From assembly GCA_000004985.1 (NCBI GenBank), contig GG738872.1: a stretch of 64,000 nt of DNA. The stretch is one strand, 5' to 3'. Positions 7,599 to 59,287 of this stretch are shown piece after piece (position 1 is the stretch's first letter; each line of letters begins with the position of its first letter). The notes under the pieces were generated by a model. That model made no database searches. It had not been told where the DNA came from and was given only the letters and a program-made list of their open reading frames with translations. This stretch comes from Naegleria gruberi (Eukaryota). The position numbers and the translations under genes are program-made.

Positions 7599-9351
7599 AT
7601 GCAAAAGCTCATTTCGACTTTTTTTCGATCATCTCCCGAATCAAGTGCCAGCTTTGACACTTCAGAAAAACCAAAACCAAGACTTCATAACCAAGGTGAT
7701 TCCAAGGCGATTGTATTCCTAGGAACAGGTGGTTCAGGAAAGTGTACGTAAAAAGTTTACAACAATTATTTATTCAACAATTTTTAATTTGTTTTGTAAA
7801 TGTTAAATAGCTGCAATTTTTGTACAAATGTTTATAGAGAAGGATGATTTGGAAAAGAGAAGAACCATTCTACATGAAACAATTTTGGAATATTTTGACA
7901 TGGTTTCAATTAATACTTCTTTTGGGAATGCTCAAGCTTGCACGAAAATGGATGAATTTTTCGAGGAATATTCTAGATCGGGACCAAAGACGCTATCGGC
8001 AAGCAAGTTTTGGACTCAGGATTTTGCAGATAATTTGTTCGAGTTGTTTTACGATTCTGGATTTCAAGATTTGATTCACCAAAACCGTTCGAAACTCTAT
8101 TTACACGAGAATATTGCCTATTTCATGAGGAAGAAGAATTTTGAGAGGATTAAACACTTGTCCAAACTCAACATTGAAGATTTATTGCGAATAATGATTA
8201 AAACCTCTGGCATCTCATCATTTTCTCCAATTAAAGGAATAACCCTGTGTGATACTGGTGGACAAAGAACTGAAAGAAAAAAATGGAATAAGATTATAAG
8301 TAATCATGGCAGCAATATTGTAGAATGTCTGGTTGTTTCATTGGCAGAGTTTGATGAGGTTTGCTATGAGGACGATGTCACTAACAGGTATGAGGAAAGC
8401 TTGACTTGTTTTAGGGAGGAATTTGTGAATACAAAAGACTTGACCATTCTCTTTACAAAATATGAAGTGTTGAAAAGGAAGGTTTCTGATGGTGTTCGAT
8501 TTTCGGATTATGTTTCAGAGTTTAGTGGAAATGATTCGAATGTAGAGGAAGTTAGAGATTTTATTATTGGAAAGTATGTGGAATTGGATACGGAGAAGAA
8601 GATTAGAAAGTTTATTGTGGTTAATTCTGCATTTGATCATTTGGAATTGCAACAGGTTTTTAATGAAATTACCGAAACTAATTCATTCGATTCATATTTT
8701 GATGAATATTTGAAGAAACTTGATTTGGAAAAGCAAACTGGTGGTGATGTTGGAGAAGGAATACATGAAAATATTGAGAAGTGGACAGCCAGACCATTAT
8801 TGGAAGATGAAATTCTACAAATTTCCAACTTTTTGGAACTTGATGACTTGCTTAATATGAACCAAGTTTGTAAAATGTGGAATCATGTGACTTATAGAGC
8901 ATCTCTGATATTGAGAAGACCAAATCTCGATTTGTTTATCAATTCAGGTTATGAATTTGTTAAGAGCTTGACTCTTCAATCGAGATTTGTACAGAAAAGA
9001 CACATTGAGGCTCTTACTCAACCAAAATTTGCACAATTGGAATATTTAGATTTGCGAAATAATTATCTATTGAGACAAGAAGATTTTGATAAGTTATTTG
9101 GAAAAACTGATTTTAAACATCTAAAAACGCTCTTGTTGGATTATGTTGCATTACAGGATTTGAAATTTCTTCAAAATTCTGCGTATTTGAGACTGCATGT
9201 TCTTTCTTTGAATGGAGTGAAAGGAATTAGCACAGAACAGGTTATTCAGCTCATCAAGTCTCCAAGCTGTCAAGAACTGAAGGAGGTCAACACTAAAAAT
9301 TGCCCAAACACTAATACAGAGATTCTCAAAAAAGAGTTGAAAGTTCCGTGA
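7599..9351 (+). CDS. Fusion protein of a degenerate heterotrimeric G-alpha-like domain with F-box and LRR domains; join(7599..7743,7811..9351), about 562 aa.
   Basis: Exon 1 (MQKLISTFF...AIVFLGTGGSGK) supplies a G-alpha P-loop. A 67-nt intron (gtacgt...ttaaatag, 7744..7810) joins in phase to SAIFVQMFIEKDD... (G-alpha GESGKSTxxKQM). Switch II is DTGGQRTERKKW (compare DVGGQRSERKKW). NKxD is degenerate (ILFTKYEV). The Arg finger is lost (LRIMIKTSGI where RTRVKTTGI is expected). TCAT is degenerate (NSAF). C-terminal F-box EILQISNFLELDDLLNMNQVCKMWNHV, then LRRs. Confidence 0.6.
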
Positions 9352-9446: not shown

Positions 9447-9519
9447 TGCTGACGGACGGGATCGAACCGGCGACCAATGGCTTATTAGACCAACGCTCTA
9501 CCGACTGAGCTACGCCAGC
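9447..9519 (-). tRNA. tRNA-Ile with anticodon AAU.
   Basis: Reverse complement reads GCTGGCGTAGCTCAGTCGGTAGAGCGTTGGTCTAATAAGCCATTGGTCGCCGGTTCGATCCCGTCCGTCAGCA. Cloverleaf with a 7/7 acceptor stem, D-arm GCTC/GAGC, anticodon loop CTAATAA and T-loop TTCGATC. One C-U mismatch in the T stem and a U-U at 27:43, hence not full confidence. Confidence 0.7.
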
Positions 9520-22215: not shown

Positions 22216-23795
22216 TGGTCATTCCAAAAAACTAAACCAATCTATGATAATCAAGTTATTTACAATCAATGCAGCATTGATAAAGCCAATCTCCCACAGG
22301 AATCCCCAATTGAAACATTCAATGTTGCATTAAAAGTTCCAGATATTGCTCTTCTTAAGAAAAACAGTAAAGTTGTCCAAAAAGGAAAATGGACCTTAAT
22401 TTGGAATCAAGGAATGGAAATTCGTTTTTCAAATTTCAGATATTTTGCCTTTTTTAATTATACTATGAATGCAGAGGGAGTTTCTACTTCAAATTGTAGT
22501 AGAATTCTTATGGGTACTTATCACGATAATTCTGTGAACGCTGCCAAGTGGGGATGCTTTATTGGTGATAGGATTAAGGTGCCAAAAAGTGCTAAAAGAT
22601 TTTTGACAGATGTCAGTTTGAGTTCTGGAAATGTAGAGGGTAGATCTGAGAGAGATGATAGAAAATATGAAGATTATCAATATGTAGAAGAATTAAATAA
22701 GGTACAAAAGAGTTGGAAGGCATCAATCAATAATCAATTTAAAGGAATGACAATTGGTCAATTGAAAAGTATTTATCTCAAAAAACAAAAAAGAGTTTCT
22801 ATTGCATCCAGAGATTTTATCAACAATGAATTGAAAAAGAAAGCTACCACCCGTCATCCCTCATCTGGAGGTCAATTCATATTCAATGGTGAAATTGACA
22901 GATATGAATGGATTAGTGATGAGGAAATTTCAAAAATTCCTGAAGAATTTTCATGGGAAGATGTGAATGGTCAAGATTATTTGACCCCTGTGAGAAACCA
23001 GTACAGTTGTGGATCATGCTTTGCTTTCGGTGAGTTTCAGATTCTGTAAAACTAATATTCGAATATTATTTAATTAAGGCACCAGTGAAATGCTTGGAAT
23101 GAGAGTTAGAATTAAGAGCGGTCTTTCCAAAACCGACATATTCTCTCCACAAGCCATTGTCGATTGTAGTCCTTATTCTCAAGGGTAGGTTCAATCTTTC
23201 GAATTTCATTATTCTAAACATTTCTAATTTTGTTTTATCAAAAAACTATAGCTGCAGTGGAGGATGTGTCTATCTTGCCTCCAAATATGTACAAGATTAT
23301 GGACTCGTTCTCGATCAATGTCTCCCTTACAATGCCTCAATGAGAGTTGCCCAAACATGCACCATCAATCAACAAACTGCATGTACAAAATTGAGAGTTT
23401 CGAATTATTACAATGTTGGTGGTTATTATGGAGCTTCAAATGAATTGAACATTATGATGGATGTCTTGAAAAGAGGTCCAATTGTTGCTGGATTTATGGT
23501 TTACAATGACTTTTTCTATTACAAGAGTGGTATTTATACTCACATTCCAACAGAAAAATACGAAACTTCATCAACAGATAAGAAATTACCCAAATTTTAC
23601 TACATTAATCACACATTAATCATTTATGGATGGGGAATCGACAAGTCAACTGGTCAAAAATATTGGAATATTCAAAATTCTTGGGGATCTAAAGATTGGG
23701 GAATGAAAGGTCGTGGTCTTGTTGCTAGAGGTGATAACACTGGATTTATTGAAAGTGATGCTGAAGCTGCAATTCCAATCATTTCAAATCTTTGA
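22216..23795 (+). CDS. CTSC: Cathepsin C (dipeptidyl peptidase I) with exclusion domain, 5'-partial because it starts inside the N-run; join(22216..23029,23079..23184,23252..23795).
   Basis: Exclusion-domain match WTLIWNQGMEIRFSNFRYFAFFNYTMNAEGVSTSNCSRILMGTYHDNSVNAAKWGCFIGDRIKVP, compare human [58 protein letters not shown]. Papain active-site QYSCGSCFAFG. Introns: 49 nt (gtgagt..taattaag) and 67 nt (gtaggt..ctatag). C-terminal IYGWGIDKSTGQKYWNIQNSWGSKDWGMKGRGLVARGDNTGFIESDAEAAIP, compare cathepsin C RRGTDECAIESIAVAATP. The frame is open back to the gap edge at 22216. Confidence 0.8.
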
Positions 23796-23985
23796 AAATA
23801 AAGAAATCTTTGAAGAATTTTTTAGATTTTTCCAATTAAATTCTCATTTCTCACTCAAAATTGTAAATGAAAAAATTGTAAATTGCATTGTTAAATCTCA
23901 GTTGATAATTGAGAATCTCCATGATTCCAGTTCGCAGAACTTATAAAAAGTCAAAAGGATCTTTTATTAAAGGTAAGTAAAAAAA

Positions 23986-24462
23986 ATGTCAACGTTCAGT
24001 GAGCTGCCATCAGAGCTACAAATTGAAATATTTTCAAATCTATCGGTCATACATTTAGGAAAAATTCTATCCATCAACAAATCCACACATGATCAACTTT
24101 TGCAGTCGGAAGTCTTTTGGAAATCATTGATCAAAAATTATTCGAAACTTTCAGGAGATTCAAATCAATCCTGTGATGAATTATTCGACATTTCTGAGGT
24201 AAAGAATCAACTAATCGACATGATCCGATATAAAAATATGAAAACCCAATTTCTACGCAAGAAATGTATAGAATTCGAATACACGTTAAGAGAATTACTA
24301 GAAGTTCAAGCAGAATTACAAAGTGTACTCCAGTTCAGACCTGAAAAGAACGAATCTCAAAAAATCAATAGGGAAATTGAGAGCATCCAAGAAGAGGTTG
24401 CCAATACCAGAAAGAAAATGGATGCATTGGAAGAAAGTTTGGAGAAAATGACAATTGATTAA
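23986..24462 (+). CDS. Small F-box protein of 158 aa with a coiled-coil C-terminus.
   Basis: F-box LPSELQIEIFSNLSVIHLGKILSINKSTHDQLLQSEVFW. C-terminal heptad-like, E/K-rich region. ATG at 23986 in an aaaaaaATG context. Confidence 0.5.
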   Translation: MSTFSELPSELQIEIFSNLSVIHLGKILSINKSTHDQLLQSEVFWKSLIKNYSKLSGDSNQSCDELFDISEVKNQLIDMIRYKNMKTQFLRKKCIEFEYTLRELLEVQAELQSVLQFRPEKNESQKINREIESIQEEVANTRKKMDALEESLEKMTID

Positions 24463-24839
24463 AGCATTATTATTTTTCATTTCATAAATGCAATTTTCTC
24501 CTTCAGGTGAATAAATTATTATTCTGCAATTTTGCAGTTAGGTCAAGAGTTCAGAAATTTTGAGAAGGAAACAAATTCAAGTTCGAAATTAATTTCGTCA
24601 TTCTGTAATCACTTTAAATATTCTAAAATCAAGAGAGTTACTAGTTCACAATCCATTGTCCGAACTGGCCAATTCATGGCTAAATTAAAGAAACAACTGG
24701 CCTTAATAAATTTTTGCAGGAGTTGTAAACTCCGTATTGGGAGTTTCTAAAGAGGAGTTTCTGGTCAAAAAGAACAACTGTAAAACAATGAGTCAAAATA
24801 CAAGACCGTCATCATCATCATTAAATTATATATAACCCT

Positions 24840-26022
24840 ATGCATTGGAATATTGCTGGCTCTCCTTGCGGTGTGGAACTGCAAAGTTGAAGCAGCTCAA
24901 ATACGCCAATTTAACAACAATTTAGAAGGAAAACAGTTGCAAAACAAGCACTCCTATGAAAGTGCACATCCTGAATCAGATATTGCTTGGGAAAATTTAC
25001 CAGTTCATGATGAAAATTTCAACAATTTTATTAACAAACATACGAGAGGTTGGTGGCAAGCAGGAAATAACAAAGTTTTCACAGGAAGAAAACTCAAAGA
25101 CATCCTAAATAGAGGTTCACATTTAAGGAGAAGAAAAGGTCAACATGTAAAAAATAACTATTCAGTAGTCAACTCAAAGATTGTGAAAATTTCAAACTAT
25201 TCCATTCCTCCAGCTTATTCCTTATTGGAAGATCCAAAATTTTCCTCATGTAAACAATTATCACTCATTAGAGATGAACAACAATGTGGATGTTGGGCCT
25301 TTGTAGTTGCTGAAGTTGTTTCTGATAGATTTTGTGTTTCATCCAAGACGAAAGTGAATGAAGTGTTATCGCCTCAATACTTAATTTCATGCGATTCCAA
25401 CAATGGTGGTTGTAGTTATGGATATTTCGATACTGCCTTTCAATTTGTTGAAAATCAAGGCATTGGTAAGTTGAAAACTCACAAATTTTCTCATGAACTT
25501 GTTTCACAGTCACTGAAAATTGCTTTCCATTCGTTTCAGGTGAAGGGAACTACATTCCCCCTTGTCCAAAAAAGTGTCTCGCCTATAATCCTTTCACCCT
25601 CTTCAAGGTCAACAACTCCCGTGCCTTCCTTCCACAGGACATCCAAGGAATGCAATTGAGCATTATGAACGGAGGTTCTCTAGCTGCCTCTCTCGATATT
25701 TACAGAGATTTTGTGCAATACAGGGGTGGTGTGTATAGACATTTGGTGGGAAATTACATGTTTACTCATTCAGTGAGGATTGTTGGGTGGGGAATTACCT
25801 CTCCTCAACAGGGAAGCATTCCATATTGTATGTACTTTTAGGAATTTTATTAACTTTGTGTATTTTTTTAAAATTGAAAAATTGAAAATTTCTAATTTAG
25901 GGATTTGTGGAAATAATTGGACAGAAGAGTGGGGTATGCAAGGTTGGTTCTGGATCCTTAGAGGTTCCAATGAATGTAATATCGAACTAGATGTGTGGGA
26001 AACTACTCCAATAATCAATTAA
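24840..26022 (+). CDS. CTSB: Cathepsin B-like papain-family cysteine protease; join(24853..25465,25540..25827,25901..26022). The N-terminal start is uncertain.
   Basis: Active-site CGCWAFVVAEVVSDRFCV (compare CGSCWAFGAVEAISDRICI). An occluding-loop-like Cys-rich segment is present. Exon 2: GTGEGNYIPPCPKKC...VRIVGWGITSPQQGSIPY. Splicing joins ...PYW | ICGNNWTEEWGMQGWFWILRGSNECNIELDV (compare [26 protein letters not shown]). Introns are 74 nt (gtaagt..tttcag) and 73 nt (gtatgt..aatttag). The track 'M' at 24853 is TTG. The nearest ATG (24840) is one frame off, so there is either a 1-nt frameshift or a missing upstream exon. Confidence 0.75.
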
Positions 26023-27572: not shown

Positions 27573-29275
27573 CTATTTAAAGTATGGAAGTAAATGATCT
27601 CTTGGAGTGAAAAATACTCTATATTTGGTGGGATCCATATAGTACATACTCTTTTCAACTGAAAATGGTGGAAATTCATTTCCGTTGGAATGAGTCAACT
27701 TGAAATGTCTAACTAATGCTATTAAGGCAAAGTAAATTTCATTAGTGGCAACTCTTTCTCCCTATTACAATTCACGATTATATAATATAATAATTGATTA
27801 ATATTACTATTATATAATTATTAAATACTTACCGGACATTTACGAGCTCCAGTTCCAAATGGGCCAAGGTAATCCTTTGGCTCGCTTATTTCAGATCCCT
27901 TGATGTGACGTTCTGGAAGAAATTCAATTCCACGTGGAACATATTTGGATTGAACTGATGGCACATCCAAGAATAAGACCTGGGTTCCCTTTTCTAATTT
28001 GTAAGCGCCAAGAATAGTGTCTTTGGTCAATAGACGAGAGTTTCTTACTGGAATAACACTGTCCACTCTCATGAGTTCATCAATGAACAATTTACATAAT
28101 TTCAATTGTTTCATATGTTCTGGGGTGACTTGCACTTGTCAATTCATCAGCAGTTGGTTCACCAAATACTTGAGCTGTCTCTTCATATAATTTCTGAGCC
28201 CACTCCTTTTCGTGAGCAATTCTATACAACAAAGTAGTCATCATACGAGCTGTAACATCGACACCACCAATCATGAATGCAGAGAGTACAGTAGTTGTTG
28301 CTTCAGAAAGAAAACCAGCCATCTTTGCTCTTTCTTCGACCAATTCTTTGAGTCTTGGAATTTTACCATCATAACGATCAGATAAAAGATCAACAAGCTT
28401 GAATCCACGTCCAAAGGAAATATCACTCAACTCTTCAAAATCCTTATAATCCTTTGTTTTGTAGCCGTACTTGTAAAGACCTGGTTGGTATTGAAGTTTG
28501 AGGATTAGATCAGTAGTATCAACAGCATCCTTAATATACTGTCTAACTGTGAATCCTAATTTTTCAATCAATTCCTTTTCAGTCACTTTAACACCCAAGA
28601 ATACTTTGATTACTGCACTAAAGGCGAATTGACTCATAATATCATACATTGGATCAGCAAAATAATATTGTTTTGAATTTTCATCAAATTTCAAGGTATT
28701 AACAAATGATTTCAATAATTCATTGTTCAATTCAGTCAATTGTGGCAAAATGACTTCGTTGAAATATTGTGGCTTGAGGGGAATATTCAAAACTTGACGA
28801 ATATCATTCCAATTCTCATGATTGAAATAGTCCATTGTAACCCTAATCATTCCCTTTTCAAGTTTGTAATGTCTTGATGCATGAAGAGTTAATCTTCCTT
28901 CTTCCCCTCTTGCTAACTCACGAACTGCCTTTGGATCTGACAAAATGACCATCTTGTTATTCAATAATTTAATCTTTACAAAATCCCCATATTGATTGGC
29001 CAATTCGGTGAAATAAGCATTTGGATTATTGGCATTCTTGAACAAATCTAAAGCTTGTCCTATGAATGGCAATCCCTTTGGGCCCGGCATTTCGTCAAAA
29101 CTCTTGAGAGGTTGTGTTGGACTTAACGGACGTTCTTGTGAAGATTAGGACATTGTGCCGTGCTACCTGAATGTGTTTCAACTTGCAAGGTGATATTCGA
29201 AAGAGAGAAGGAACGTTGCGTCAGTTTTGCTAATTGCTTGTTGAGAGAAAGTGTTTGAGTAGTTCTTCTTAGCAT
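27573..29275 (-). CDS. Cytochrome P450 with a presequence-like N-terminus (possibly mitochondrial-type); join(29275..29167,29134..27833,27761..27573). An apparent 1-nt frameshift lies near 28100-28120.
   Basis: MPGPKGLPFIGQ near the N-terminus. I-helix GGVDVTA. ExxR as ELMR. PERF-like FLPERH. The heme loop FGTGARKCPG forms only after splicing ccg|gtaagt...ttgtaatag|gga (70-nt intron, 27832..27763), which adds ERVATNEIYFALIALVRHFKL... The N-terminal and C-terminal halves sit in two overlapping ORFs (28092..29090 and 27821..28135) that differ by one frame. The proposed first exon MLRRTTQTLSLNKQLAKLTQRSFSLS... plus a 32-nt intron is tentative. Confidence 0.7.
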
Positions 29276-32374: not shown

Positions 32375-32445
32375 GCGTCGATGGTTTAGTGGTAGAATAC
32401 GGCGTTGCCATCGCCGTGACCCGGGTTCAATTCCCGGTCGACGCA
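32375..32445 (+). tRNA. tRNA-Gly with anticodon GCC.
   Basis: GCGTCGATGGTTTAGTGGTAGAATACGGCGTTGCCATCGCCGTGACCCGGGTTCAATTCCCGGTCGACGCA. Perfect acceptor stem (GCGTCGA/TCGACGC), anticodon loop TTGCCAT, T-arm CCGGG-TTCAATT-CCCGG. A T-run follows downstream. Confidence 0.85.
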
Positions 32446-32633: not shown

Positions 32634-33707
32634 ATGTCGAAACTTATCACATTGTTTCTGCTGGCTACATTGTTCACCTCATGTCATGCACAAATACCCG
32701 TGACAACCATTCAACTTGACATTGAACCGTACACACTTTCGGAATGGACAAGTGACAGACAAGGAGTTGCCAATCAATTCTTGGATTTGATAGATAAATT
32801 ATTAGCTTTGAAACCACCTCTTCCTCTTCGTTTTGCAATTCCTCGTTGGTTTGATGGAATTTCAATCACCCGTAATGGTGTTACTAAATATTTAAGTCAA
32901 TTCGTCCAAGACAGAGCTCACTTAATGATTATGGATTATGTTAACACAGCACAGAGGTATGTTAAACAATATTTCATTTGAAAATTCTCATAAATTCAAT
33001 ATAGAGCCATCAATGATGCCCAAGATGAAATCAAATATGGATCCATTTCTGGAACTAAATCTGTAATTGGATTAGAAACAATGCAATTACCAAGTGAACC
33101 GACCTCAACTTATTATGGAAAGAATGCAAGTGATTTGGAGAGTGATTTGCAATTGATTGATAGTGCATTTTCATTGAATAGATCTTCATTTGAGGCGCTA
33201 TGTGTACATGATTGGAAAAATTGGAAAGTTTTTACTGCAAATTTTACAAAACCAATTGGTCAATTAAGGAGGGATTTGTATGTTTGGGATAATAGTGTAA
33301 TTCTTGTAGAGGAGGTGAGGAAGATATTTATGGATGATCTTAAAATATTGAATGGTAAATTGAGGAGAGTTTATTTGGAAGCAGAATATTTAATGGTCAA
33401 CTCTAAATATTGGAATATTACAAAAAGTACAATTCAGGAGTGGAATTCAAAGTTTGGAGTAGAAGTGGAGCTTCTTTCAGGAGATTCCAATTGGGCATTA
33501 ACTACAAATCATGCTAGACCTATTGCATTTGTTAATGCTAGCATTGCTTTCTATCAGAGTTATCCTAAAGTGATTCCAACAAGTTCAATATTTACACAAA
33601 ATTCAACCAAATTTGCCAGAGAATCCAATGCAAATATTTCTTTTTCAATCATTGGATCATTTTTGACCATATTCCTCTTCCTCATTCAATATTTAATTAA
33701 CTTTTAA
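32634..33707 (+). CDS. Secreted protein with a signal peptide and a C-terminal hydrophobic, GPI-anchor-like tail; join(32634..32956,33005..33707).
   Basis: Signal MSKLITLFLLATLFTSCHA|Q. A 48-nt intron (gtatgt...caatatag) joins ...VNTAQ-R-AINDAQDEIKYGSISG... in frame. The C-terminus SIIGSFLTIFLFLIQYLINF is hydrophobic. Several N-glycosylation sites. Function unknown. Confidence 0.5.
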
Positions 33708-33720
33708 TAATTTAAATAAT

Positions 33721-36700
33721 TTATTGTGGAGGCTCAACATCTCCACTTCTAATAAAGTACTTGAGTTCCAACTCTATCAAGTGTTCATCACTCATTAGTG
33801 GACAAGAAATTGCTGTTGAACCATTGTTTGAATTATAAACTTCTAAAGCATGAGTTAGATTGGCACATCCAAGACGAGTGTCCAATTTTGAGGATGTGTA
33901 CAATCTGTCATATTGGGCAGGGAACAAATTCAAGATACCAAAGATTGTATTTTCATTGGTCATGTTTGGATACTTGTGAGCATTGCCCATTTCCTTCATT
34001 AAGATTTCAACAAATTGGCCATATGGAATTTCATTTACCTTGAATCCCATCTTTTTCATAACTTGGACAATGGCATGGACACTTCTTGTAGCCATAGGAT
34101 TATTTCTATTGGTGTTAATAACGTTGAAAATATTATTAACTGTCTTATCTTGAGCAAATAGAGAAGGATAGAGTTGATTTGAATTGACCACAGCTACAAT
34201 ACTCTGGGCACAAAAATCAACAGGAAGCATGTGAATACTGTCAGTAGAATTTTCTGGTGCAACACCCAAGTGAATCATACCACACATTAATCTGCTGATC
34301 CATTCTCTGACACTGGAGAAACCATTCTTTGAATGACCAACAACTAGTCCAGGTCTATAGATGGCAATTGATTTAATATTCTTCTCTTCCATGGCTAATC
34401 TGAGAATGTGTTCACTGATAAACTTGGTTTGTGGATAACCACCATTCAATAATTGGAAGTTTTCAACAGTGAGTGGAACGAAATCTTCATTTACAACGGT
34501 GTTATACTTGGCCATGTTGTGAGGTACTACACTGATGGAGGAGACAAAGTGAAGAGTCTTGAGCTTGTTTCCAGAAGTTGCAAGCTTGAGACATTCAACA
34601 ACACTTTGTACATTGACAGTTCTCAATTGATCATAATTCATAATAAAATTAACATTAGCTCCGCAGTGAATAATTGAGTCCAACTCTGTTGACAAGGTGC
34701 TGATCATTTGATTATCCAATCCGAATTGTGGCAAGCCAAAATCTCCACATAAAACTCTAGTTCTCGTTTCAAATCCGTTTTGAACGGCATTGATAACATT
34801 AGAGTCCAAACCTTGAGTGTATTGGACAATATTATCTAACACTCTTCTTCTACCTTCCTCTTCGGAGCTAGCTCTAACAAGGCAATAAACAATCGATTCA
34901 GGATAAAGTAGCAATTGTTCACATAGCAAACCACTTCCAATAAAACCTGTAACACCTGTCAATAAAATCTTCTTTGGTGTTTCATGCAAACAAGAGGTAT
35001 TCATGGTGGCAGTGTCAATAGATGGTACTTGAGAGAGCAAGCTTCTAACTTCCTCTTCCAAGGCATTATTGGAGGCAAATCTTGCAGATTTTTCAGACAT
35101 TGCTTGATTTGGATTTTGCATGGCATGGTCAATAATTTCCAACATTTTCTCTGCTGGATTATCATGATTCTTTACAGAGAGTAACTTGTCAGCTCCAACA
35201 ACAATACCAAACTTTTGCATCAAGATGTTCGATAGACGAACAGTACTCAAAGAATCAATAACACCTCCACTTTGGAACAAGTTTTGAATAATAGTCTTCA
35301 ATTGTTCCTTATTTTCAACAGTTTCGAGTTGAGTGATGTCACCTTCCTTTTCCACTTGAGTATAGAGTTTGTCGAGAGCTTCCTTGTAGGCCTTATTGAG
35401 GGCTGGTCTACAAATCTTGTACGAGCTGGTCAATTTACCATTGTCTGGTGTGAATTTTTCCAAATCAATTATAAATGCCTTTGGAGATTCATAGGACTCT
35501 AATTTTCCTTCTCTTGCTGCAGTAATAATTTCCTTTTGAATGATTTGATAAGCGACACTTCCTCTCGAGAGATCCATCGCGTCTGGTACTGGTAAGTTTT
35601 GTTCTTTCAAAACAGTGGCAACTTGCTCTTGCAAAATTGGAACGTTCTTTGGAACAATGACAGCAACCATGAATGATCTGAATGAATTTCCATACAAGAA
35701 CATTTGATCAATGAAATGAGATTTGGAAATGAAGAGATTTTCCAAATTTTCAGGAGCTACAAATTCACCTTGAGCTAACTTGAAAATATTCTTTCTTCTA
35801 TCAATAACTTTAACCTTGTAGGTACTCTTTGAAATCTCACCAATATCACCTGTATGATAGAATCCTTCGCTATCAATTAGTTCACTGGTCTTTTGAGCAT
35901 CTCTATAATAGCCAGGAATACAATCTTCACTCTTTACACAAATTTCACCTCTAGCATTTGGCTGATCGGTAATGTAATAGGAGAGTTCTGGAACATTTTC
36001 CAACTTGATGGTGACACCGTCAACTAGGAGCATGTGAGATGGAAGATTTTCATTGTCCTTCTTGGTCTTGTCTGTAATATACACTTGCTCCAATTCTCCT
36101 CTATCAATCCAACCAATGGATCCACACTCAGTTGAGGCATACCCATTGAAAACAGGTACCTTGAAGCAGTCACGAAGGAATTTAATTACTTCAGGGGAGG
36201 TTGCAGCGCCACCTGTTACAATTGAAGTTATTCTTCCTCCTAAAATATTTTTGAAATTATTCAAAATTAAAAATTCAGAGACTGGCTCACTACTACTAGC
36301 ATTTCTCTTCAATCTACTTTGATATTCAGCGAGGAGAGTATTGTAGAATCTTGGTGTAGTGGAAAGTGTTACAGGTTGAATCAATTGGAAATCTTCCAAA
36401 ATTTTATCCATTTCACCACAATAAATACCAACTCGGCCACCATTAATAGCACAAATTGTTGTGTTGGATCTGTCAGTAACGTGAGAGAGTGGTGAGAAGG
36501 AAACACACACAAGGGGATGATTTTGGTAGAGTTCATGTTGAAGTTGTTTGTTGTAGTGTCTATCTGTAATGATGGCCCCTTTTGGTTCGGTAGATGTGGA
36601 GCCAGAAGTATAGACAATTGTGCACATATCCTCGACATTTCTATTAGTCTTGATGGCAACTCTGAGCTCATCGGAAAATGTTGGATATTCATTAATAGTT

Positions 36701-38301
36701 GACATTTCCACATAGTTCATATCTTTCAATTCTACGGAGAGCTCTTTGGCCAACACTCTAGCCTTGAAATCAAGTTCAATATCATTTTCACTAATATAAT
36801 TTAAGAGGACAAAATCTTCATCTGAAGCATTCCAATCACACAAGTCTGCTAGTGAAGTGTTCATGTTAATATTGGTATCTGGATATCTGTTCTTCAATAA
36901 ATAATAATATCTCAAAAAGTCACTGGAATCCTTGGTATAATTGGTGAGTTTTTTGAGTCCTTCCAAATGAGATCTTCTTCTATTTTTGACAAGGTCTTGA
37001 ACATTATTTTCTTGTACAGATTGGAGGTATGATGGCACTTCCTCTTCCTCAACAATCAGGGCATCCATTTGTATAATGGCCTTCACAGATGGTAAGAGAC
37101 CTCTCTTGATGAGTTTTAAAAATTTGACAGTCAATTCTCTGCTACAAACAATGAGTGGAACTTGTGAATTATTTACCACTTGAATAATTTCGTGGGACAT
37201 CATTTTCATATCCTCCTTTGATTCTATATTTACAATATCTTCAGAGAGGCATTCAACTTTAGCTTTTGGAAGTGGAATGGTAACCATAGCTTGAGTCAAT
37301 CCAGCCCAATCAGCAACAAACCAATCAGGTCTGTTAATTGAACAAATGCCAACGAATCCTCTGTTGATTTCTTTTTGATTTTCTCTGTGTTGAGTCAAGA
37401 GCTTTTCATTATTGAAACAAATTCTCAACCCATTACCGAATCTCAATACTCTTTCGTGGAGTTGAGCATATGTAAACCAACGATACTTGTTCTCATATTG
37501 ATCCTTGGCAATTTTTCTTCTATAACCCAAACAAGGTCTATCAGCATAGGCCAATAGAGCATTATTGAGAGTTTCAGCAACGTAGGAACCTTTGGTGAGC
37601 CAATGCAAATGAGCAGGATGTTTCGAATTTTTCACCAAGAAAACATCATGAATAGGAATTGGTTTACGCTGGGCAATAGTTTCTCTTGCTTTAATCTTCC
37701 ACTCCTCCACACTCTTCTTCTCCCATTCCTCCATTGAAATATTAAAATCCTCAAATTTATCACTCTCCAAACAGTGCATCTTTGGTACATTGGTTTTGAG
37801 TTTTGCCTTTGAAATCATACAAACATCCTCATGTCTATCTCTATAGTATCCTTCATAAATATAAAATCTGACACCAATCTTCTTCTGATACTCTTCTCCA
37901 TTCTCACTCAGAGCCACTTGCAAATCGAGTGGCACAGAAGGATCAAATTTCTGTGGTTCAAATCGAAGAGCAGCCAAGAAGGCAGTCGGAACAAAACCAA
38001 TATGCTTCTCATTACGTGGAATATCATGATCATAGACTCGACATCCATTTCGATGAACATCACGAATATCCACTTTTTGAACCAATGCCCAACCCAAACC
38101 AGTTTCATACTCACGAAGGAGAATCATCAGATCACCAACTTTGAGTGATATCAAACCTTCAGAATTATTTGGCTCCACTTCATAGTCAGAAACCGAGATG
38201 GCATATTTAGGGAATTTGAACATTTTTTTTAAATTGTTAATCAATAGGTTGGATGTACTGGTGGATAAATAGTGCAGGTAACACACAAGGATCAAGTTCA
38301 T
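33721..38301 (-). CDS. Fatty-acyl-AMP ligase / acyl-CoA-synthetase-type adenylation domain, then a phosphopantetheine carrier domain, then a thioester reductase, with an SH3-like N-terminal domain; 1526 aa, single exon.
   Basis: AMP-binding motifs TSGSTSTEPKGAII, GYASTECG, YHTGDIG and DRRKNIFKLAQGEFVAPENLE (ACSL/FAAL-like). Carrier motif LFQSGGVIDSLSTVRL (GGxDSL). Reductase Rossmann LLTGVTGFIGSGLL and YRPGLVVGHSKNG (Y/K). The N-terminal GDLMILLREYETGLGWALVQ...HIGFVPTAFL is SH3-like. ATG at 38301. Confidence 0.8.
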   Translation of the reverse strand: MNLILVCYLHYLSTSTSNLLINNLKKMFKFPKYAISVSDYEVEPNNSEGLISLKVGDLMILLREYETGLGWALVQKVDIRDVHRNGCRVYDHDIPRNEKHIGFVPTAFLAALRFEPQKFDPSVPLDLQVALSENGEEYQKKIGVRFYIYEGYYRDRHEDVCMISKAKLKTNVPKMHCLESDKFEDFNISMEEWEKKSVEEWKIKARETIAQRKPIPIHDVFLVKNSKHPAHLHWLTKGSYVAETLNNALLAYADRPCLGYRRKIAKDQYENKYRWFTYAQLHERVLRFGNGLRICFNNEKLLTQHRENQKEINRGFVGICSINRPDWFVADWAGLTQAMVTIPLPKAKVECLSEDIVNIESKEDMKMMSHEIIQVVNNSQVPLIVCSRELTVKFLKLIKRGLLPSVKAIIQMDALIVEEEEVPSYLQSVQENNVQDLVKNRRRSHLEGLKKLTNYTKDSSDFLRYYYLLKNRYPDTNINMNTSLADLCDWNASDEDFVLLNYISENDIELDFKARVLAKELSVELKDMNYVEMSTINEYPTFSDELRVAIKTNRNVEDMCTIVYTSGSTSTEPKGAIITDRHYNKQLQHELYQNHPLVCVSFSPLSHVTDRSNTTICAINGGRVGIYCGEMDKILEDFQLIQPVTLSTTPRFYNTLLAEYQSRLKRNASSSEPVSEFLILNNFKNILGGRITSIVTGGAATSPEVIKFLRDCFKVPVFNGYASTECGSIGWIDRGELEQVYITDKTKKDNENLPSHMLLVDGVTIKLENVPELSYYITDQPNARGEICVKSEDCIPGYYRDAQKTSELIDSEGFYHTGDIGEISKSTYKVKVIDRRKNIFKLAQGEFVAPENLENLFISKSHFIDQMFLYGNSFRSFMVAVIVPKNVPILQEQVATVLKEQNLPVPDAMDLSRGSVAYQIIQKEIITAAREGKLESYESPKAFIIDLEKFTPDNGKLTSSYKICRPALNKAYKEALDKLYTQVEKEGDITQLETVENKEQLKTIIQNLFQSGGVIDSLSTVRLSNILMQKFGIVVGADKLLSVKNHDNPAEKMLEIIDHAMQNPNQAMSEKSARFASNNALEEEVRSLLSQVPSIDTATMNTSCLHETPKKILLTGVTGFIGSGLLCEQLLLYPESIVYCLVRASSEEEGRRRVLDNIVQYTQGLDSNVINAVQNGFETRTRVLCGDFGLPQFGLDNQMISTLSTELDSIIHCGANVNFIMNYDQLRTVNVQSVVECLKLATSGNKLKTLHFVSSISVVPHNMAKYNTVVNEDFVPLTVENFQLLNGGYPQTKFISEHILRLAMEEKNIKSIAIYRPGLVVGHSKNGFSSVREWISRLMCGMIHLGVAPENSTDSIHMLPVDFCAQSIVAVVNSNQLYPSLFAQDKTVNNIFNVINTNRNNPMATRSVHAIVQVMKKMGFKVNEIPYGQFVEILMKEMGNAHKYPNMTNENTIFGILNLFPAQYDRLYTSSKLDTRLGCANLTHALEVYNSNNGSTAISCPLMSDEHLIELELKYFIRSGDVEPPQ

Positions 38302-38565
38302 AGTACAGAGCTGTTATCCTTTTTACAAAAATATTAATCAATATTAATAATATTAAACATGGTTATTTAATAATGTTAAAATTGTAAAGTAAAAAAAAAT
38401 GGGCAAAAAGCATCCGATTTCTTTTCGCCGCTTTTTTAGCTCTTAAATATATTTCAAAGGCATAAGAGAATCTTCAGCCACTACCATAATTCAAATCCAA
38501 AAAAAAGGAACAATAAGCCTTTTAAAACAACAACAACTATATTATTTAATTTATTAGAGAAGAAC

Positions 38566-38970
38566 ATGTTTACTTCCGAATTCATGACTAAATTTCAAAC
38601 ATTATGGAATCAAGATGAAACGATTCCATCCACTCTCAAATCCATCAATTTCTCGGCCAATGTTGGTTATGGAATTAAAAGAGAGGATCAACCAAAGACT
38701 GTTTTAATTATTAAGGAAGGAAGTGTGGTGGATGCCAAAGTTTATGAAGGAGAGGAATTGGATTGGGATATTAGATGTTCTGAGGATAATTGGAAACATT
38801 ATATGGTGAAGGGAATGGGAATGTCACAACTCGCTTCAGGATATGCTATGGGTTGGCTTAAATTTATTAAAGGAGATTACTTTAGCATGATTAAGAATCC
38901 AAGAATGATTGGACCATTCATTAAGAGTTTTGAATTGATGAGCAAGGTATATACAGAACTGAATCAATAA
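38566..38970 (+). CDS. Small SCP2-like sterol/lipid carrier protein of 134 aa.
   Basis: DWDIRCSEDNWKHYMVKGMGMSQLASGYAMGWLKFIKGDYFSMI resembles the SCP2 C-terminal region (compare [43 protein letters not shown]). It is head-to-head with the ligase-reductase gene across a 264-bp intergenic region. Confidence 0.5.
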   Translation: MFTSEFMTKFQTLWNQDETIPSTLKSINFSANVGYGIKREDQPKTVLIIKEGSVVDAKVYEGEELDWDIRCSEDNWKHYMVKGMGMSQLASGYAMGWLKFIKGDYFSMIKNPRMIGPFIKSFELMSKVYTELNQ

Positions 38971-58903: not shown

Positions 58904-59016
58904 TTTGTGGCTTTTTTTTCTTGTATTTTAAAGAACGAAGGCTTCATGCTAAGTTATTTCACTCTTATGCTTAAAATTAATATTCTTAATCGATGAATTT
59001 TCATCGTGAATAAGAT

Positions 59017-59088
59017 TCCCGTGTAGTCCAATGGCTAGGATACCTGGCTTTCACCCAGGAGGTCCGGGTTCAATTCCCGGCATGGGAG
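59017..59088 (+). tRNA. tRNA-Glu with anticodon UUC.
   Basis: TCCCGTGTAGTCCAATGGCTAGGATACCTGGCTTTCACCCAGGAGGTCCGGGTTCAATTCCCGGCATGGGAG. Acceptor 7/7 with one G-U; anticodon loop CTTTCAC; close to the eukaryotic tRNA-Glu-TTC consensus. Confidence 0.85.
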
Positions 59089-59287
59089 AATCATTTTGCT
59101 AATAGAAATTTCAAGGGATACTTTTTTGTCGTTCAAAACTGTCATTTGTTCATCAATTTTAAACAAGCACACAAGTACTCGGTAAGCTACCATCAAAAAA
59201 CGTGTTTTATTCCAAAGTGCAATTTCAGACTTTCACAAGTTCCAATCCCTGCTCCATCAAACACTTTACAATTAAAGTCTGAAAAAA

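What the first reader, a model, noticed from the sequence alone, without database searches (positions are those of the whole stretch)
33721..38970. SH3-fronted acyl-AMP ligase / carrier / reductase megaenzyme, head-to-head with an SCP2-like lipid carrier
The 1526-aa intronless gene has the adenylation, thiolation and reductase order of carboxylic-acid reductases and Lys2. Its adenylation domain is ACSL/FAAL-like (DRRKNIFKLAQGEFVAPENLE) rather than NRPS-like. This points to fatty acid activation and reduction to a fatty aldehyde or alcohol on a carrier domain. Two features are atypical: an N-terminal extension of about 270 aa with an SH3-like barrel signature (ALVQKVD...GFVPTAFL), and the genomic pairing. 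It shares a 264-bp bidirectional promoter region with an SCP2-like lipid-binding protein, and a presequence-bearing P450 lies 4.4 kb away. Together this looks like a small lipid or secondary-metabolite module.
Basis: partly seen in the sequence, partly recalled or inferred. Interest (0 to 1): 0.65.

Follow-up and report, generated by a model that had tools for sequence, protein, structure and literature searches.

The report
Amoeba carboxylic-acid reductase with SH3 front
This is a real Naegleria gruberi gene for a large enzyme built like bacterial carboxylic-acid reductases (activate an acid, tether it, reduce it to an aldehyde), and it carries an SH3 domain and a decayed zinc finger at its front; the neighbouring lipid-carrier gene and the nearby P450 look like chance neighbours, not a gene cluster.

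Summary
The ORF at 33721..38301(-) is real and intronless. Orthologues start at Met27 (38223), which gives about 1500 aa. The window is Naegleria gruberi, whose public annotation holds this gene only as fragments.

- **Enzyme core.** The adenylation–carrier–thioester-reductase order is confirmed and the catalytic residues are intact. The closest solved structures and NCBIfam model are bacterial carboxylic acid reductases (CAR/FadD9), not Lys2. In a tree of 145 adenylation cores it falls in the reductase-bearing clade, apart from acyl-CoA synthetases (94% bootstrap). The "ACSL-like" motif is therefore normal for CARs.
- **N-terminus.** The SH3 guess holds. Relatives (an Amoebozoan and environmental eukaryotes) carry a plain SH3 plus a ZZ zinc finger at the same position. 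Naegleria and Willaertia have a ~25-aa SH3 loop insertion and have lost the ZZ cysteines. They also have a ~130-aa insertion in the adenylation domain and a one-residue P-loop insertion.
- **Neighbour.** The 134-aa gene does have an SCP2 fold (pLDDT 91).
- **Cluster idea.** Not supported. The pairing is absent in N. fowleri, N. lovaniensis and Willaertia, and several unrelated ORFs plus a tRNA gene separate the P450.

Verdict: a new variant of a known enzyme kind. Substrate and product are untested.

The parts
33721..38223 (-). Coding sequence of the SH3-ZZ(relic)-A-T-R enzyme, from Met27 of the ORF to the stop codon (about 1500 aa)
   Evidence: ORF. Start placed at Met27 from the alignment to P0001-P0004 and the 100%-identical public fragment P0017.
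38224..38301 (-). 26 in-frame upstream codons (MNLILVCY...), probably 5' leader rather than coding
   Evidence: No counterpart in any orthologue.
37972..38205 (-). SH3-like domain, residues 33-110 (ORF numbering)
   Evidence: Most of the 24 weak PDB profile hits are SH3 domains aligned in register. Relatives P0018, P0019 and P0020 hit Pfam SH3_9, SH3_1 and SH3_2 at the aligned position, E 1e-4 to 5e-3.
38002..38070 (-). Insertion of about 23-25 residues in the SH3 distal loop (DIRDVHRNGCRVYDHDIPRNEK), specific to Naegleria and Willaertia
   Evidence: Alignment A6 shows a gap in P0018, P0019 and P0020. hhalign skips this stretch.
37702..37854 (-). Relic ZZ-type zinc finger, residues ~150-200; most Cys ligands replaced (C161..S164, H176-C177..S180, I188-S189)
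   Evidence: Aligned columns are C-x2-C / HCL[DE]C / [LI]C-x2-C in P0018, P0019 and P0031. Pfam ZZ is above its cut-off in P0019, P0036, P0033 and P0049. The window protein gives no Pfam hit.
35347..37620 (-). Adenylation (acyl-AMP-forming) domain, residues ~228-985
   Evidence: Pfam AMP-binding. CAR alignments. Invariant T724, E725, D819, R835 and K962. Tree placement.
36667..37056 (-). Lineage-specific insertion of about 130 aa in the N-terminal half of the A domain (residues ~416-545)
   Evidence: It matches only the four heterolobosean orthologues. The spacing from the DRP motif to the P-loop is 310 aa here against 162-207 aa in relatives.
36577..36612 (-). P-loop (motif A3) YTSGSTSTEPKG, with a one-residue insertion and Gly-to-Ser change
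   Evidence: Every other relative examined in which the motif was found has the canonical YTSG[ST]TGxxKG.
35758..35802 (-). Motif A8 / hinge DRRKNIFKLAQGEFV (residues 834-848)
   Evidence: It aligns to DRRNNVLKLSQGEFV in the 1174-aa CAR of PDB entry 5msc.
35107..35319 (-). Divergent carrier (thiolation) domain, residues ~995-1065; predicted phosphopantetheine site Ser1017 (codon 35251..35253)
   Evidence: Pfam PP-binding reaches only 16.6 bits (cut-off 20.8). hhalign to the carrier regions of 71 relatives: probability 97.5%, E 7.6e-12, starting at GG..DSL. Asp1016-Ser1017 are invariant.
33724..34971 (-). Thioester reductase (SDR) domain, residues 1111-1526: GxxGxxG at 1116-1122, Ser1255, Tyr1289, Lys1293, Glu1333
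   Evidence: Pfam NAD_binding_4 and TIGR01746. Residue mapping from the CAR alignment. Residue roles from PMC10168641.
38224..38565 (.). Divergent intergenic spacer between the enzyme gene and the SCP2-like gene (342 bp, AT-rich)
38566..38970 (+). SCP2-fold protein of 134 aa (public NAEGRDRAFT_68353); adjacent, but not shown to be functionally linked
   Evidence: AlphaFold pLDDT 91.4. The best Foldseek PDB hits are SCP2-fold proteins or domains; best 1wfr, E 2.7e-6, TM 0.64. No Pfam hit. Adjacency is not conserved.

Best explanation
The gene encodes a eukaryotic member of the carboxylic-acid-reductase (CAR/FadD9) type of adenylation-carrier-reductase enzymes.

Proposed mechanism:
1. The A domain uses ATP to make an acyl-adenylate from a free carboxylic acid, most likely a medium- or long-chain fatty acid.
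2. The acyl group moves to the phosphopantetheine thiol on Ser1017 of the carrier domain.
3. The C-terminal SDR-type thioester reductase uses NAD(P)H to release it as an aldehyde, possibly reduced further to the alcohol.

Shown here: the domain order, the family placement and the intact catalytic residues. Inferred: the chemistry, the substrate class and the product.

The N-terminus is an SH3 domain followed by a ZZ zinc finger that has lost its zinc ligands in Naegleria and Willaertia. SH3-ZZ, or ZZ alone, precedes the same enzyme in Amoebozoa and other protists. It most likely tethers or regulates the enzyme through protein-protein contacts and takes no part in catalysis.

The SCP2-like gene next door is a genuine lipid-carrier-fold protein. 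Its head-to-head position is specific to this genome and is not evidence of a gene cluster.
For: - **Architecture and thresholds:** (AMP-binding, NAD_binding_4; TIGR01746 215 bits against 213; CAR NF041592 404 bits over residues 495-1373).
- **Solved structures:** the three best PDB matches are CARs (264, 258 and 252 bits, spanning A to R), followed by a 643-aa chain (6oz1, named 'Oxidoreductase') that aligns to the A-domain region at 195 bits. Luciferases and 4CLs score 44 bits or less.
- **Deep search:** of 1.84 billion representatives, the closest relatives are A-T-R proteins of 1050-1390 aa from Acrasis, Rhizamoeba, Balamuthia, Thecamonas, Dictyostelium and Protostelium, plus bacterial 'carboxylic acid reductase / FadD9'.
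- **Tree:** in the NJ tree of 145 A cores, a 58-member clade with no reductase (including the fungal Faa2/ACSL proteins that were identified) separates from the A-T-R clade in 58 of 62 bootstraps. The five heterolobosean proteins are monophyletic in 62 of 62.
- **Catalytic residues:** T724, E725, D819, R835, K962, D1016 and S1017 are conserved in all six aligned proteins. The R-domain glycines G1116, G1119 and G1122 are also invariant. S1255, Y1289 and K1293 match the CAR residues, with roles taken from PMC10168641.
- **Carrier homology:**
- **SH3 and ZZ:**
- **Selection:** overall identity is 61% to N. fowleri and 53% to Willaertia, and the N-terminal module is 56% identical to N. fowleri. 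This indicates purifying selection on the whole protein.
Against: - No biochemical data exist for this protein or any eukaryotic relative (literature searches found nothing).
- It scores far below the NCBIfam CAR equivalog cut-off (404 against 1300).
- The P-loop has a one-residue insertion not seen in any other relative.
- The carrier domain is below the Pfam threshold and seems to lack the usual long loop before the serine.
- A 130-aa insertion of unknown effect sits in the A domain.
- Substrate class is inferred only from family resemblance, and bacterial CARs also take aromatic acids.
- Naegleria already has FARAT, AGPS and PEDS1 for ether-lipid alcohols (bioRxiv 10.1101/2025.10.10.681575), so the physiological need for this route is unclear.
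Confidence: 0.72

Rival explanations
1. Part of a small lipid or secondary-metabolite gene cluster. The A-T-R enzyme, the SCP2-like carrier (sharing a bidirectional promoter) and the P450 would act on one lipid substrate.
For: The head-to-head arrangement with a 342-bp spacer is real. The neighbour has a true SCP2 fold. A P450 lies 4.4 kb away. In N. lovaniensis an SCP2-like gene and a paralogue share one 784-kb contig.
Against: There is no SCP2-like gene or P450 within 10 kb of the orthologues in N. fowleri, Willaertia or N. lovaniensis. The N. lovaniensis pair is about 42 kb apart. Several unrelated ORFs (including a GT18-like one) and a tRNA-Gly separate the P450 from the enzyme. The surrounding genes are housekeeping or unrelated.
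Confidence: 0.08
2. Alpha-aminoadipate reductase (Lys2) of lysine biosynthesis, or another NRPS-like amino or aryl acid reductase.
For: The A-T-R order is the same. TIGR03443 gives 167 bits. Some hits carrying NRPS C-domains share the R domain (P0006 and P0007).
Against: The TIGR03443 match covers only residues 878-1525 (T-R) and is far below the 1030-bit cut-off. The A domain aligns to CARs, not to NRPS A domains. The tree places it with CAR/FadD9.
Confidence: 0.03
3. A four-electron fatty-alcohol-forming reductase. This is the same enzyme, but its physiological product would be the primary alcohol, for example for wax esters or as an acyl-CoA-independent source of ether-lipid alcohols.
For: After CARs, the R domain scores best against MxaA (132.7 bits), which from my own knowledge is an alcohol-forming reductase. 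CAR R domains intrinsically over-reduce aliphatic aldehydes such as octanal (PMC10168641). N. gruberi encodes the plasmalogen pathway.
Against: Nothing in the sequence distinguishes two-electron from four-electron reductases. Glu1333 occupies the position of the CAR Asp and of fungal Glu888, which contacts the NADPH amide. FARAT already supplies fatty alcohol in Naegleria.
Confidence: 0.15
4. A catalytically impaired or non-enzymatic scaffold. The P-loop insertion, divergent carrier and decayed ZZ finger would be signs of functional decay.
For: The P-loop departs from the canonical YTSG[ST]TGxxKG seen in the relatives examined. PP-binding is below threshold. The ZZ ligands are lost.
Against: All other catalytic residues are invariant across five heterolobosean sequences from four species that diverged to 50-61% identity. 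The P-loop variant itself is conserved, and two paralogous lineages are retained.
Confidence: 0.05

Closest known systems
Bacterial type I carboxylic acid reductases / FadD9 (e.g. the Nocardia iowensis, Segniliparus rugosus and Mycobacterium marinum enzymes; PDB 5msc, 5mso, 5msp; NCBIfam NF041592). Species attributions of the PDB entries are from my own knowledge.
   Same: Same A-T-R order. It aligns continuously from motif A3 to the reductase core (residues 557-1351 against CAR 247-1018). It shares the DRRxN..KL[AS]QGEFV hinge, the A10 lysine, the DSL serine, the GxxGxxG motif and the S/T-Y-K residues. The A core falls in the same clade.
   Different: Only about 37-39% identity in the A core and 404 bits against the 1300-bit equivalog cut-off. 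It is eukaryotic and has an N-terminal SH3 plus relic ZZ module, a ~130-aa insertion before the P-loop, a one-residue P-loop insertion and a shortened carrier domain.
Uncharacterised ZZ-A-T-R and SH3-ZZ-A-T-R proteins of Amoebozoa and other protists (Rhizamoeba saxonica EP01130_P001682, Dictyostelium dimigraforme KAN0039369.1, Stenamoeba, Protostelium, Balamuthia KAL6055781.1, Thecamonas XP_013762481.1, Acrasis kona KAL0491093.1)
   Same: These are the closest sequence relatives (40-48% identity in the A core). The ZZ finger sits in front of the A domain, and in the nearest ones (P0018, P0019, P0020) an SH3 sits in front of the ZZ.
   Different: They keep the zinc-binding cysteines, a plain SH3 distal loop, the canonical P-loop and a PP-binding domain above the Pfam threshold. 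None has a described function.
Eukaryotic long-chain acyl-CoA synthetases (ACSL / Faa)
   Same: A cores are 33-38% identical, with the same hinge and fatty-acyl-CoA-synthetase-type signature around TGDIG...DRxKN.FKL.QGE. The resemblance to the ACSL signature is partly from my own knowledge.
   Different: ACSLs have no carrier or reductase domain and form a separate clade (58 of 62 bootstraps). ACSLs hand the acyl group to CoA, not to a tethered phosphopantetheine.
Fungal Lys2 and fungal CARs (types II-IV, NRPS-like A domain)
   Same: A-T-R order and a thioester reductase with Ser/Tyr/Lys and a Glu contacting NADPH.
   Different: Their A domains are NRPS-like. Here only the T-R part matches the Lys2 model.
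Myxococcus xanthus ElbD and FAR/FARAT fatty-alcohol suppliers of ether-lipid synthesis
   Same: They reduce an activated fatty acyl group. ElbD-like proteins combine a ligase, ACP, reductase and acyltransferase (P0008; Fig. 1 legend quoted).
   Different: No acyltransferase or 'Sterile' domain is present here. P0008 is only a distant hit (67 bits). Naegleria has a separate FARAT.

Membership tests
Carboxylic acid reductase (CAR/FadD9 type A-T-R) | Adenylation, carrier and thioester reductase domains in that order on one polypeptide | tested here: met
Carboxylic acid reductase (CAR/FadD9 type A-T-R) | A domain belongs to the CAR/FadD9 lineage rather than to ACSL or NRPS lineages | tested here: met
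   NJ tree of 145 A cores. The ACSL-type clade is separate in 58 of 62 bootstraps, and the window protein sits among reductase-bearing proteins next to bacterial CARs. This is NJ only, not maximum likelihood.
Carboxylic acid reductase (CAR/FadD9 type A-T-R) | Score at or above the NCBIfam NF041592 equivalog cut-off (1300 bits) | tested here: not met
   404 bits. It is a homologue, not an equivalog by NCBI's criterion.
Carboxylic acid reductase (CAR/FadD9 type A-T-R) | Phosphopantetheine-attachment serine in a carrier domain | tested here: met
   Asp1016-Ser1017 are invariant and align to GGDSLS of a solved CAR. hhalign gives 97.5%. Pfam PP-binding is below its cut-off (16.6 against 20.8).
Carboxylic acid reductase (CAR/FadD9 type A-T-R) | Reductase with GxxGxxG and the Ser/Thr-Tyr-Lys catalytic residues | tested here: met
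   G1116/G1119/G1122, S1255, Y1289 and K1293. Roles per PMC10168641.
Carboxylic acid reductase (CAR/FadD9 type A-T-R) | ATP- and NADPH-dependent reduction of a free acid to the aldehyde; activation by a PPTase | not testable with these tools
   Needs biochemistry. No PPTase gene was seen among the window ORFs scanned, and the rest of the genome was not searched.
Alpha-aminoadipate reductase (Lys2, TIGR03443) | Full-length match above the 1030-bit cut-off, including an NRPS-type A domain | tested here: not met
   167 bits, covering residues 878-1525 only.
Long-chain acyl-CoA synthetase (ACSL) | Stand-alone A domain of about 650-700 aa within the ACSL clade | tested here: not met
   It carries T and R domains, and its A core lies outside the ACSL clade.
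SH3 domain | Significant match to an SH3 profile with the ALYDY / W / G-[FY]-[VI]-P-x-x-[FY] elements in order | tested here: inconclusive
   The window protein gives no Pfam hit even at E 10 and the AlphaFold model failed (pLDDT 37). The weak PDB hits are mostly SH3 domains in register. Homologous segments of P0018, P0019 and P0020 hit SH3_9, SH3_1 and SH3_2 at E 1e-4 to 5e-3, all below the gathering scores. Taken together, likely an SH3.
ZZ-type zinc finger (PF00569) | The Cys/His zinc ligands and a profile match | tested here: not met
   The window protein keeps only C161, H176 and C177 of the ligand columns and gives no Pfam hit. Relatives are above the cut-off: P0019 25.4, P0036 29.1, P0033 28.7 and P0049 31.3 bits. 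Hence it is a relic.
SCP2 / sterol carrier protein 2 fold (the 134-aa neighbour) | Alpha/beta SCP2 fold | tested here: met
   pLDDT 91.4. The best Foldseek hits are SCP2-fold proteins or domains, E down to 2.7e-6 and TM 0.64-0.66. Pfam SCP2 models do not hit. Lipid binding was not tested.
Biosynthetic gene cluster | Co-localisation of the component genes conserved across related genomes | tested here: not met

The most novel reading that the evidence does not exclude
SH3-ZZ-fused carboxylic acid reductases could be a previously undescribed family, specific to amoeboid eukaryotes, of scaffold-tethered fatty acid reductases. The SH3/ZZ head would dock the enzyme on a proline-rich or membrane- or cytoskeleton-associated partner, so that fatty aldehyde or alcohol is made locally from free fatty acid without passing through acyl-CoA. 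This would run parallel to the FARAT route. In Naegleria the module has been remodelled: a loop insertion in the SH3 and a zinc-free ZZ.
Probability: 0.15. Interest if true: 0.6.

Novelty: new variant of a known kind. Interest (0 to 1): 0.4.

Why it matters
CARs are valued biocatalysts and have been characterised from bacteria and fungi. A distinct protist lineage with signalling-type SH3 and ZZ domains fused to the enzyme is not described in the searchable literature. It would widen the known diversity of CARs and suggests that free fatty acid reduction in amoebae may be spatially organised. For Naegleria, whose energy metabolism favours lipids by my recollection of the literature, it points to an uncharacterised route from fatty acids to aldehydes or alcohols. 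The route is also present in the pathogen N. fowleri (FDP41_013167). On the practical side, the public N. gruberi annotation splits this gene into fragments and should be corrected. The result also removes a false lead, because there is no conserved gene cluster here.

Tried and rejected
- **AlphaFold of the N-terminal 244 aa** with a 5-sequence alignment gave pLDDT 37 and was unusable, so no fold search was run on it.
- **Pfam at E up to 10** found no SH3 or ZZ in the window protein and no SCP2 in the neighbour.
- **The third word-index homologue search**, using the N-terminal alignment A6, returned only the self fragment P0017.
- **The look-up of encoding contigs** had no record for P0004 or P0011. 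The P0009 locus is a 2.7-kb metagenome contig with no useful context.
- **Literature searches** found nothing relevant for Naegleria plus CAR, amoebae plus CAR/FadD9, the locus tags, or ZZ-type plus thioester reductase.
- **PDB sequence searches** of the P450 piece and of the flanking ORFs of 208 and 251 aa gave no hits.
- **Rejected: Lys2**.
- **Rejected: a recent ACSL plus T-R fusion**.
- **Rejected: a conserved cluster with SCP2 and the P450**.
- **Rejected: the 1526-aa start at 38301**.
Full report

A 1526-codon open frame runs from 38301 down to 33721 on the minus strand. It is the longest ORF in a gene-dense window of 33% G+C with three scattered tRNA genes.

Two public "predicted protein" fragments of Naegleria gruberi are 100% identical to parts of the ORF. 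They are EFC35433.1 (303 aa, on a 2.8-kb scaffold) and EFC43692.1 (350 aa, partial). The neighbouring 134-aa product groups with N. gruberi EFC43602.1, whose partial copy P0011 is 100% identical. The window is therefore N. gruberi, and the reference annotation holds this gene only in pieces.

Full-length orthologues exist in N. fowleri (FDP41_013167, 61% identity) and Willaertia magna (53%). A second paralogous lineage is seen in N. lovaniensis and N. gruberi. Those two are 65% identical to each other and 50-53% identical to the window protein.

All orthologues begin at MF(K/N)F, which is Met27 of the ORF. The product is therefore about 1500 aa (33721..38223), and the spacer to the divergent neighbour is 342 bp, not 264 bp. 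Homology is continuous over 98% of the ORF, so the gene has no intron.

**2. What the enzyme is**

Pfam finds AMP-binding (E 4.6e-39) and NAD_binding_4 (E 6.6e-53). NCBIfam's thioester-reductase model TIGR01746 is just above its cut-off (215 against 213 bits).

The best full-length model is carboxylic acid reductase NF041592, at 404 bits over residues 495-1373. That is well below the 1300-bit equivalog cut-off. The Lys2 model TIGR03443 scores 167 bits and covers only the carrier-reductase part.

The three best solved structures are bacterial CARs (252-264 bits), aligned without a break from motif A3 into the reductase core. Next comes a 643-aa chain (6oz1) aligned to the A-domain region at 195 bits. 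Luciferases and 4-coumarate ligases reach 44 bits at most.

*Carrier domain.* It is divergent. Pfam PP-binding scores 16.6 bits against a cut-off of 20.8. A profile of the five heterolobosean carrier regions aligns to the carrier regions of 71 relatives with probability 97.5% and E 7.6e-12. The alignment starts at GG(VI)DSLS. Asp1016-Ser1017 are invariant.

*Catalytic residues.* All of these are in place:
- Motif A5: T724-E725.
- Motif A7: D819.
- Motif A8: R835.
- Motif A10: K962.
- Reductase: G1116/G1119/G1122, S1255, Y1289 and K1293.
- Glu1333, at the position of the acidic residue that contacts the NADPH amide.

These come, with residue roles from PMC10168641.

**3. Where it sits in the family**

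An index-free HMMER search of 1.84 billion representatives with residues 27-985 gave 1272 hits below 1e-30. I classified the top 150 with domain probes and looked up names for 30 of them.

The nearest relatives are eukaryotic A-T-R proteins:
- Acrasis kona.
- Two unnamed sequences: P0018 (JGI, on a 147-kb contig) and P0019 (from the Logan assemblies).
- Rhizamoeba saxonica, Balamuthia mandrillaris, Cavostelium, Stenamoeba, Protostelium and Dictyostelium.
- The apusomonad Thecamonas.

Bacterial proteins labelled "carboxylic acid reductase" or "FadD9" are about 37-39% identical in the A core. Fungal Faa2/ACSL proteins are about 34-36% identical.

A neighbour-joining tree of 145 near-complete A cores (402 columns) splits a 58-member clade with no reductase domain from everything else. 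That clade includes the fungal Faa2/ACSL proteins I identified. The split appears in 58 of 62 bootstraps. Nearly every member of the other clade carries the reductase. The five heterolobosean proteins are monophyletic in 62 of 62 replicates. They group with P0018, Acrasis and P0019 in 45 of 62.

It is, however, the normal state of the CAR/FadD9 lineage and not an oddity. The Lys2 alternative named as a refuter is excluded.

**4. The N-terminal extension**

The window protein itself gives no Pfam hit, and AlphaFold on a 5-sequence alignment failed with pLDDT 37. Three lines of evidence nevertheless support an SH3:
The alignment skips residues 78-100.
- A profile search of PDB sequences returns only weak hits (E 0.2-2). 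Most of the 24 are SH3 domains, and in the two alignments printed both halves match in register.
- The closest relatives P0018, P0019 and P0020 have an uninterrupted SH3 at the aligned position. They hit Pfam SH3_9, SH3_1 and SH3_2 at E 1e-4 to 5e-3.

Behind the SH3, those relatives carry a ZZ-type zinc finger: P0019 scores 25.4 bits against a cut-off of 21.4. ZZ alone precedes the A domain in Dictyostelium (29.1 bits), Stenamoeba (28.7) and P0049 (31.3).

In the alignment, the Naegleria and Willaertia proteins keep this segment, which is 56% identical between N. gruberi and N. fowleri. They have replaced most of the cysteine ligands: C-x2-C becomes C..S, HCLxC becomes HCLES, and LC-x2-C becomes ISMEE.

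The extension is therefore SH3 (with a ~25-residue distal-loop insertion) plus a zinc-free ZZ relic.

Two further lineage-specific features are unexplained:
- About 130 extra residues lie between the start of the A domain and the P-loop. The spacing is 310 aa here against 162-207 aa in relatives.
- The P-loop reads YTSGSTSTEPKG, where the relatives in which the motif was found have the canonical YTSG[ST]TGxxKG.

**5. The neighbours**

The 134-aa protein has no Pfam hit, but its model is confident (pLDDT 91.4, pTM 0.85). The best Foldseek PDB matches are SCP2-fold proteins or SCP2-like domains. They include Thermus TT1886 (E 2.7e-6, TM 0.64), UbiJ-SCP2, human SCP2 and MFE-2, and alkylsulfatase C-terminal domains. 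UniRef names the N. lovaniensis orthologue an SCP2 domain-containing protein. The "SCP2-like" call is confirmed.

The functional pairing is not supported:
- The upstream neighbour of the N. fowleri orthologue is a mitochondrial carrier.
- In Willaertia it is an unannotated 388-aa gene on the same strand.
- In N. lovaniensis it is a ubiquitin gene.
- tblastn finds no SCP2-like sequence within 10 kb in any of the three, and none has a P450 nearby.
- The N. lovaniensis SCP2-like gene lies about 42 kb from the paralogue on the same contig.

In the window, the P450 is real but divergent and split by an intron. It is separated from the enzyme by several ORFs and a tRNA-Gly: two unknown ORFs of 251 and 115 aa, a GT18-like glycosyltransferase, and a 208-aa ORF.

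The wider window encodes eIF2-gamma, Tfb2, PNO1, PIG-N, an M16 peptidase, cathepsins, a G-alpha, SprT and similar genes. This is ordinary chromosome, not a cluster.

**6. How it most likely works**

*Shown here:*
- Domain order.
- Family placement.
- Conserved catalytic residues.
- Purifying selection across four species and two paralogues.

*Inferred from the established CAR mechanism:*
1. The A domain forms an acyl-AMP from a free carboxylic acid and ATP.
2. The acyl group is transferred to the phosphopantetheine on Ser1017.
3. The carrier swings to the SDR-type reductase.
4. NAD(P)H reduces the thioester and releases an aldehyde. Part of it may be reduced further to the alcohol, as CAR reductase domains do with octanal (PMC10168641).

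A fatty acid substrate is plausible from the ACSL-like signature and the FadD9 relationship, but it is untested.

The SH3 and relic ZZ head is most simply a protein-interaction module for localisation or regulation.

Naegleria already encodes FARAT, AGPS and PEDS1 for plasmalogens (bioRxiv 10.1101/2025.10.10.681575). This enzyme is therefore not needed for the canonical fatty-alcohol supply, and its physiological role is open.

**7. Novelty and score**

The kind of enzyme (CAR-type A-T-R) is well known, and the sequences are in public databases as hypothetical proteins. What I could not find described is a eukaryotic, mainly amoeboid, ZZ- or SH3-ZZ-fused CAR lineage, or its remodelled form in Naegleria (subscription journals are largely unsearched).

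I rate it a new variant of a known kind, of moderate interest (0.4).

Noticed in passing
window 33721-38301 versus public N. gruberi proteins EFC35433.1 and EFC43692.1: The reference N. gruberi annotation holds this gene only as two 100%-identical fragments (303 aa on a 2.8-kb scaffold; 350 aa partial on a 413-kb scaffold). The full-length protein is missing from the protein databases searched.
   Followed up: partly
window 36577-36612 (residues 564-575): The ATP-binding P-loop reads YTSGSTSTEPKG, with one extra residue and Ser in place of the usual Gly. This form is conserved in all five Naegleria/Willaertia proteins and absent from the other relatives examined. Its effect on adenylation is unknown.
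   Followed up: partly
window 36667-37056 (residues ~416-545): A conserved insertion of about 130 aa in the N-terminal half of the A domain. It is found only in the heterolobosean core group and resembles nothing else.
   Followed up: partly
L003 14288-14458 (N. lovaniensis PYSW02000005.1): The N. lovaniensis gene model C9374_012428 (P0003, 1375 aa) looks truncated. tblastn homology to the C-terminus of the window protein continues beyond the annotated stop.
   Followed up: no
P0042 (N. lovaniensis C9374_013423, 1374 aa): A third, more distant A-T-R paralogue exists in Naegleria, in a different clade of the A-core tree. Heterolobosea therefore carry several CAR-like genes.
   Followed up: no
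window 27573-29275 (-): The P450 gene is split into at least two exons (28092-29090 and 27821-28135). It is divergent: Pfam p450 only, and the 332-aa exon finds no PDB chain at E<1e-5.
   Followed up: partly
window 33081-33707 (+): A convergent 208-aa ORF ends 13 bp before the stop codon of the big gene. It has a hydrophobic C-terminus and many N-x-S/T sites, and no Pfam or PDB match.
   Followed up: partly
window 22414-25659 (+): A run of papain-family (Peptidase_C1) ORFs. One has a cathepsin C exclusion domain, so this is probably a split cathepsin C gene plus a paralogue.
   Followed up: no
window 7828-9351 (+): The ORF combines a G-protein alpha subunit domain with a weak C-terminal F-box-like match.
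   Followed up: no
window 9447-9519, 32375-32445, 59016-59089: Three dispersed tRNA genes: Ile-AAT, Gly-GCC and Glu-TTC.
   Followed up: no
P0008 (ENA metagenome, 1454 aa): A distant hit carries reductase-type, Sterile, AMP-binding, PP-binding and acyltransferase Pfam families on one chain. This resembles an ElbD/FARAT-type ether-lipid fusion enzyme.
   Followed up: no
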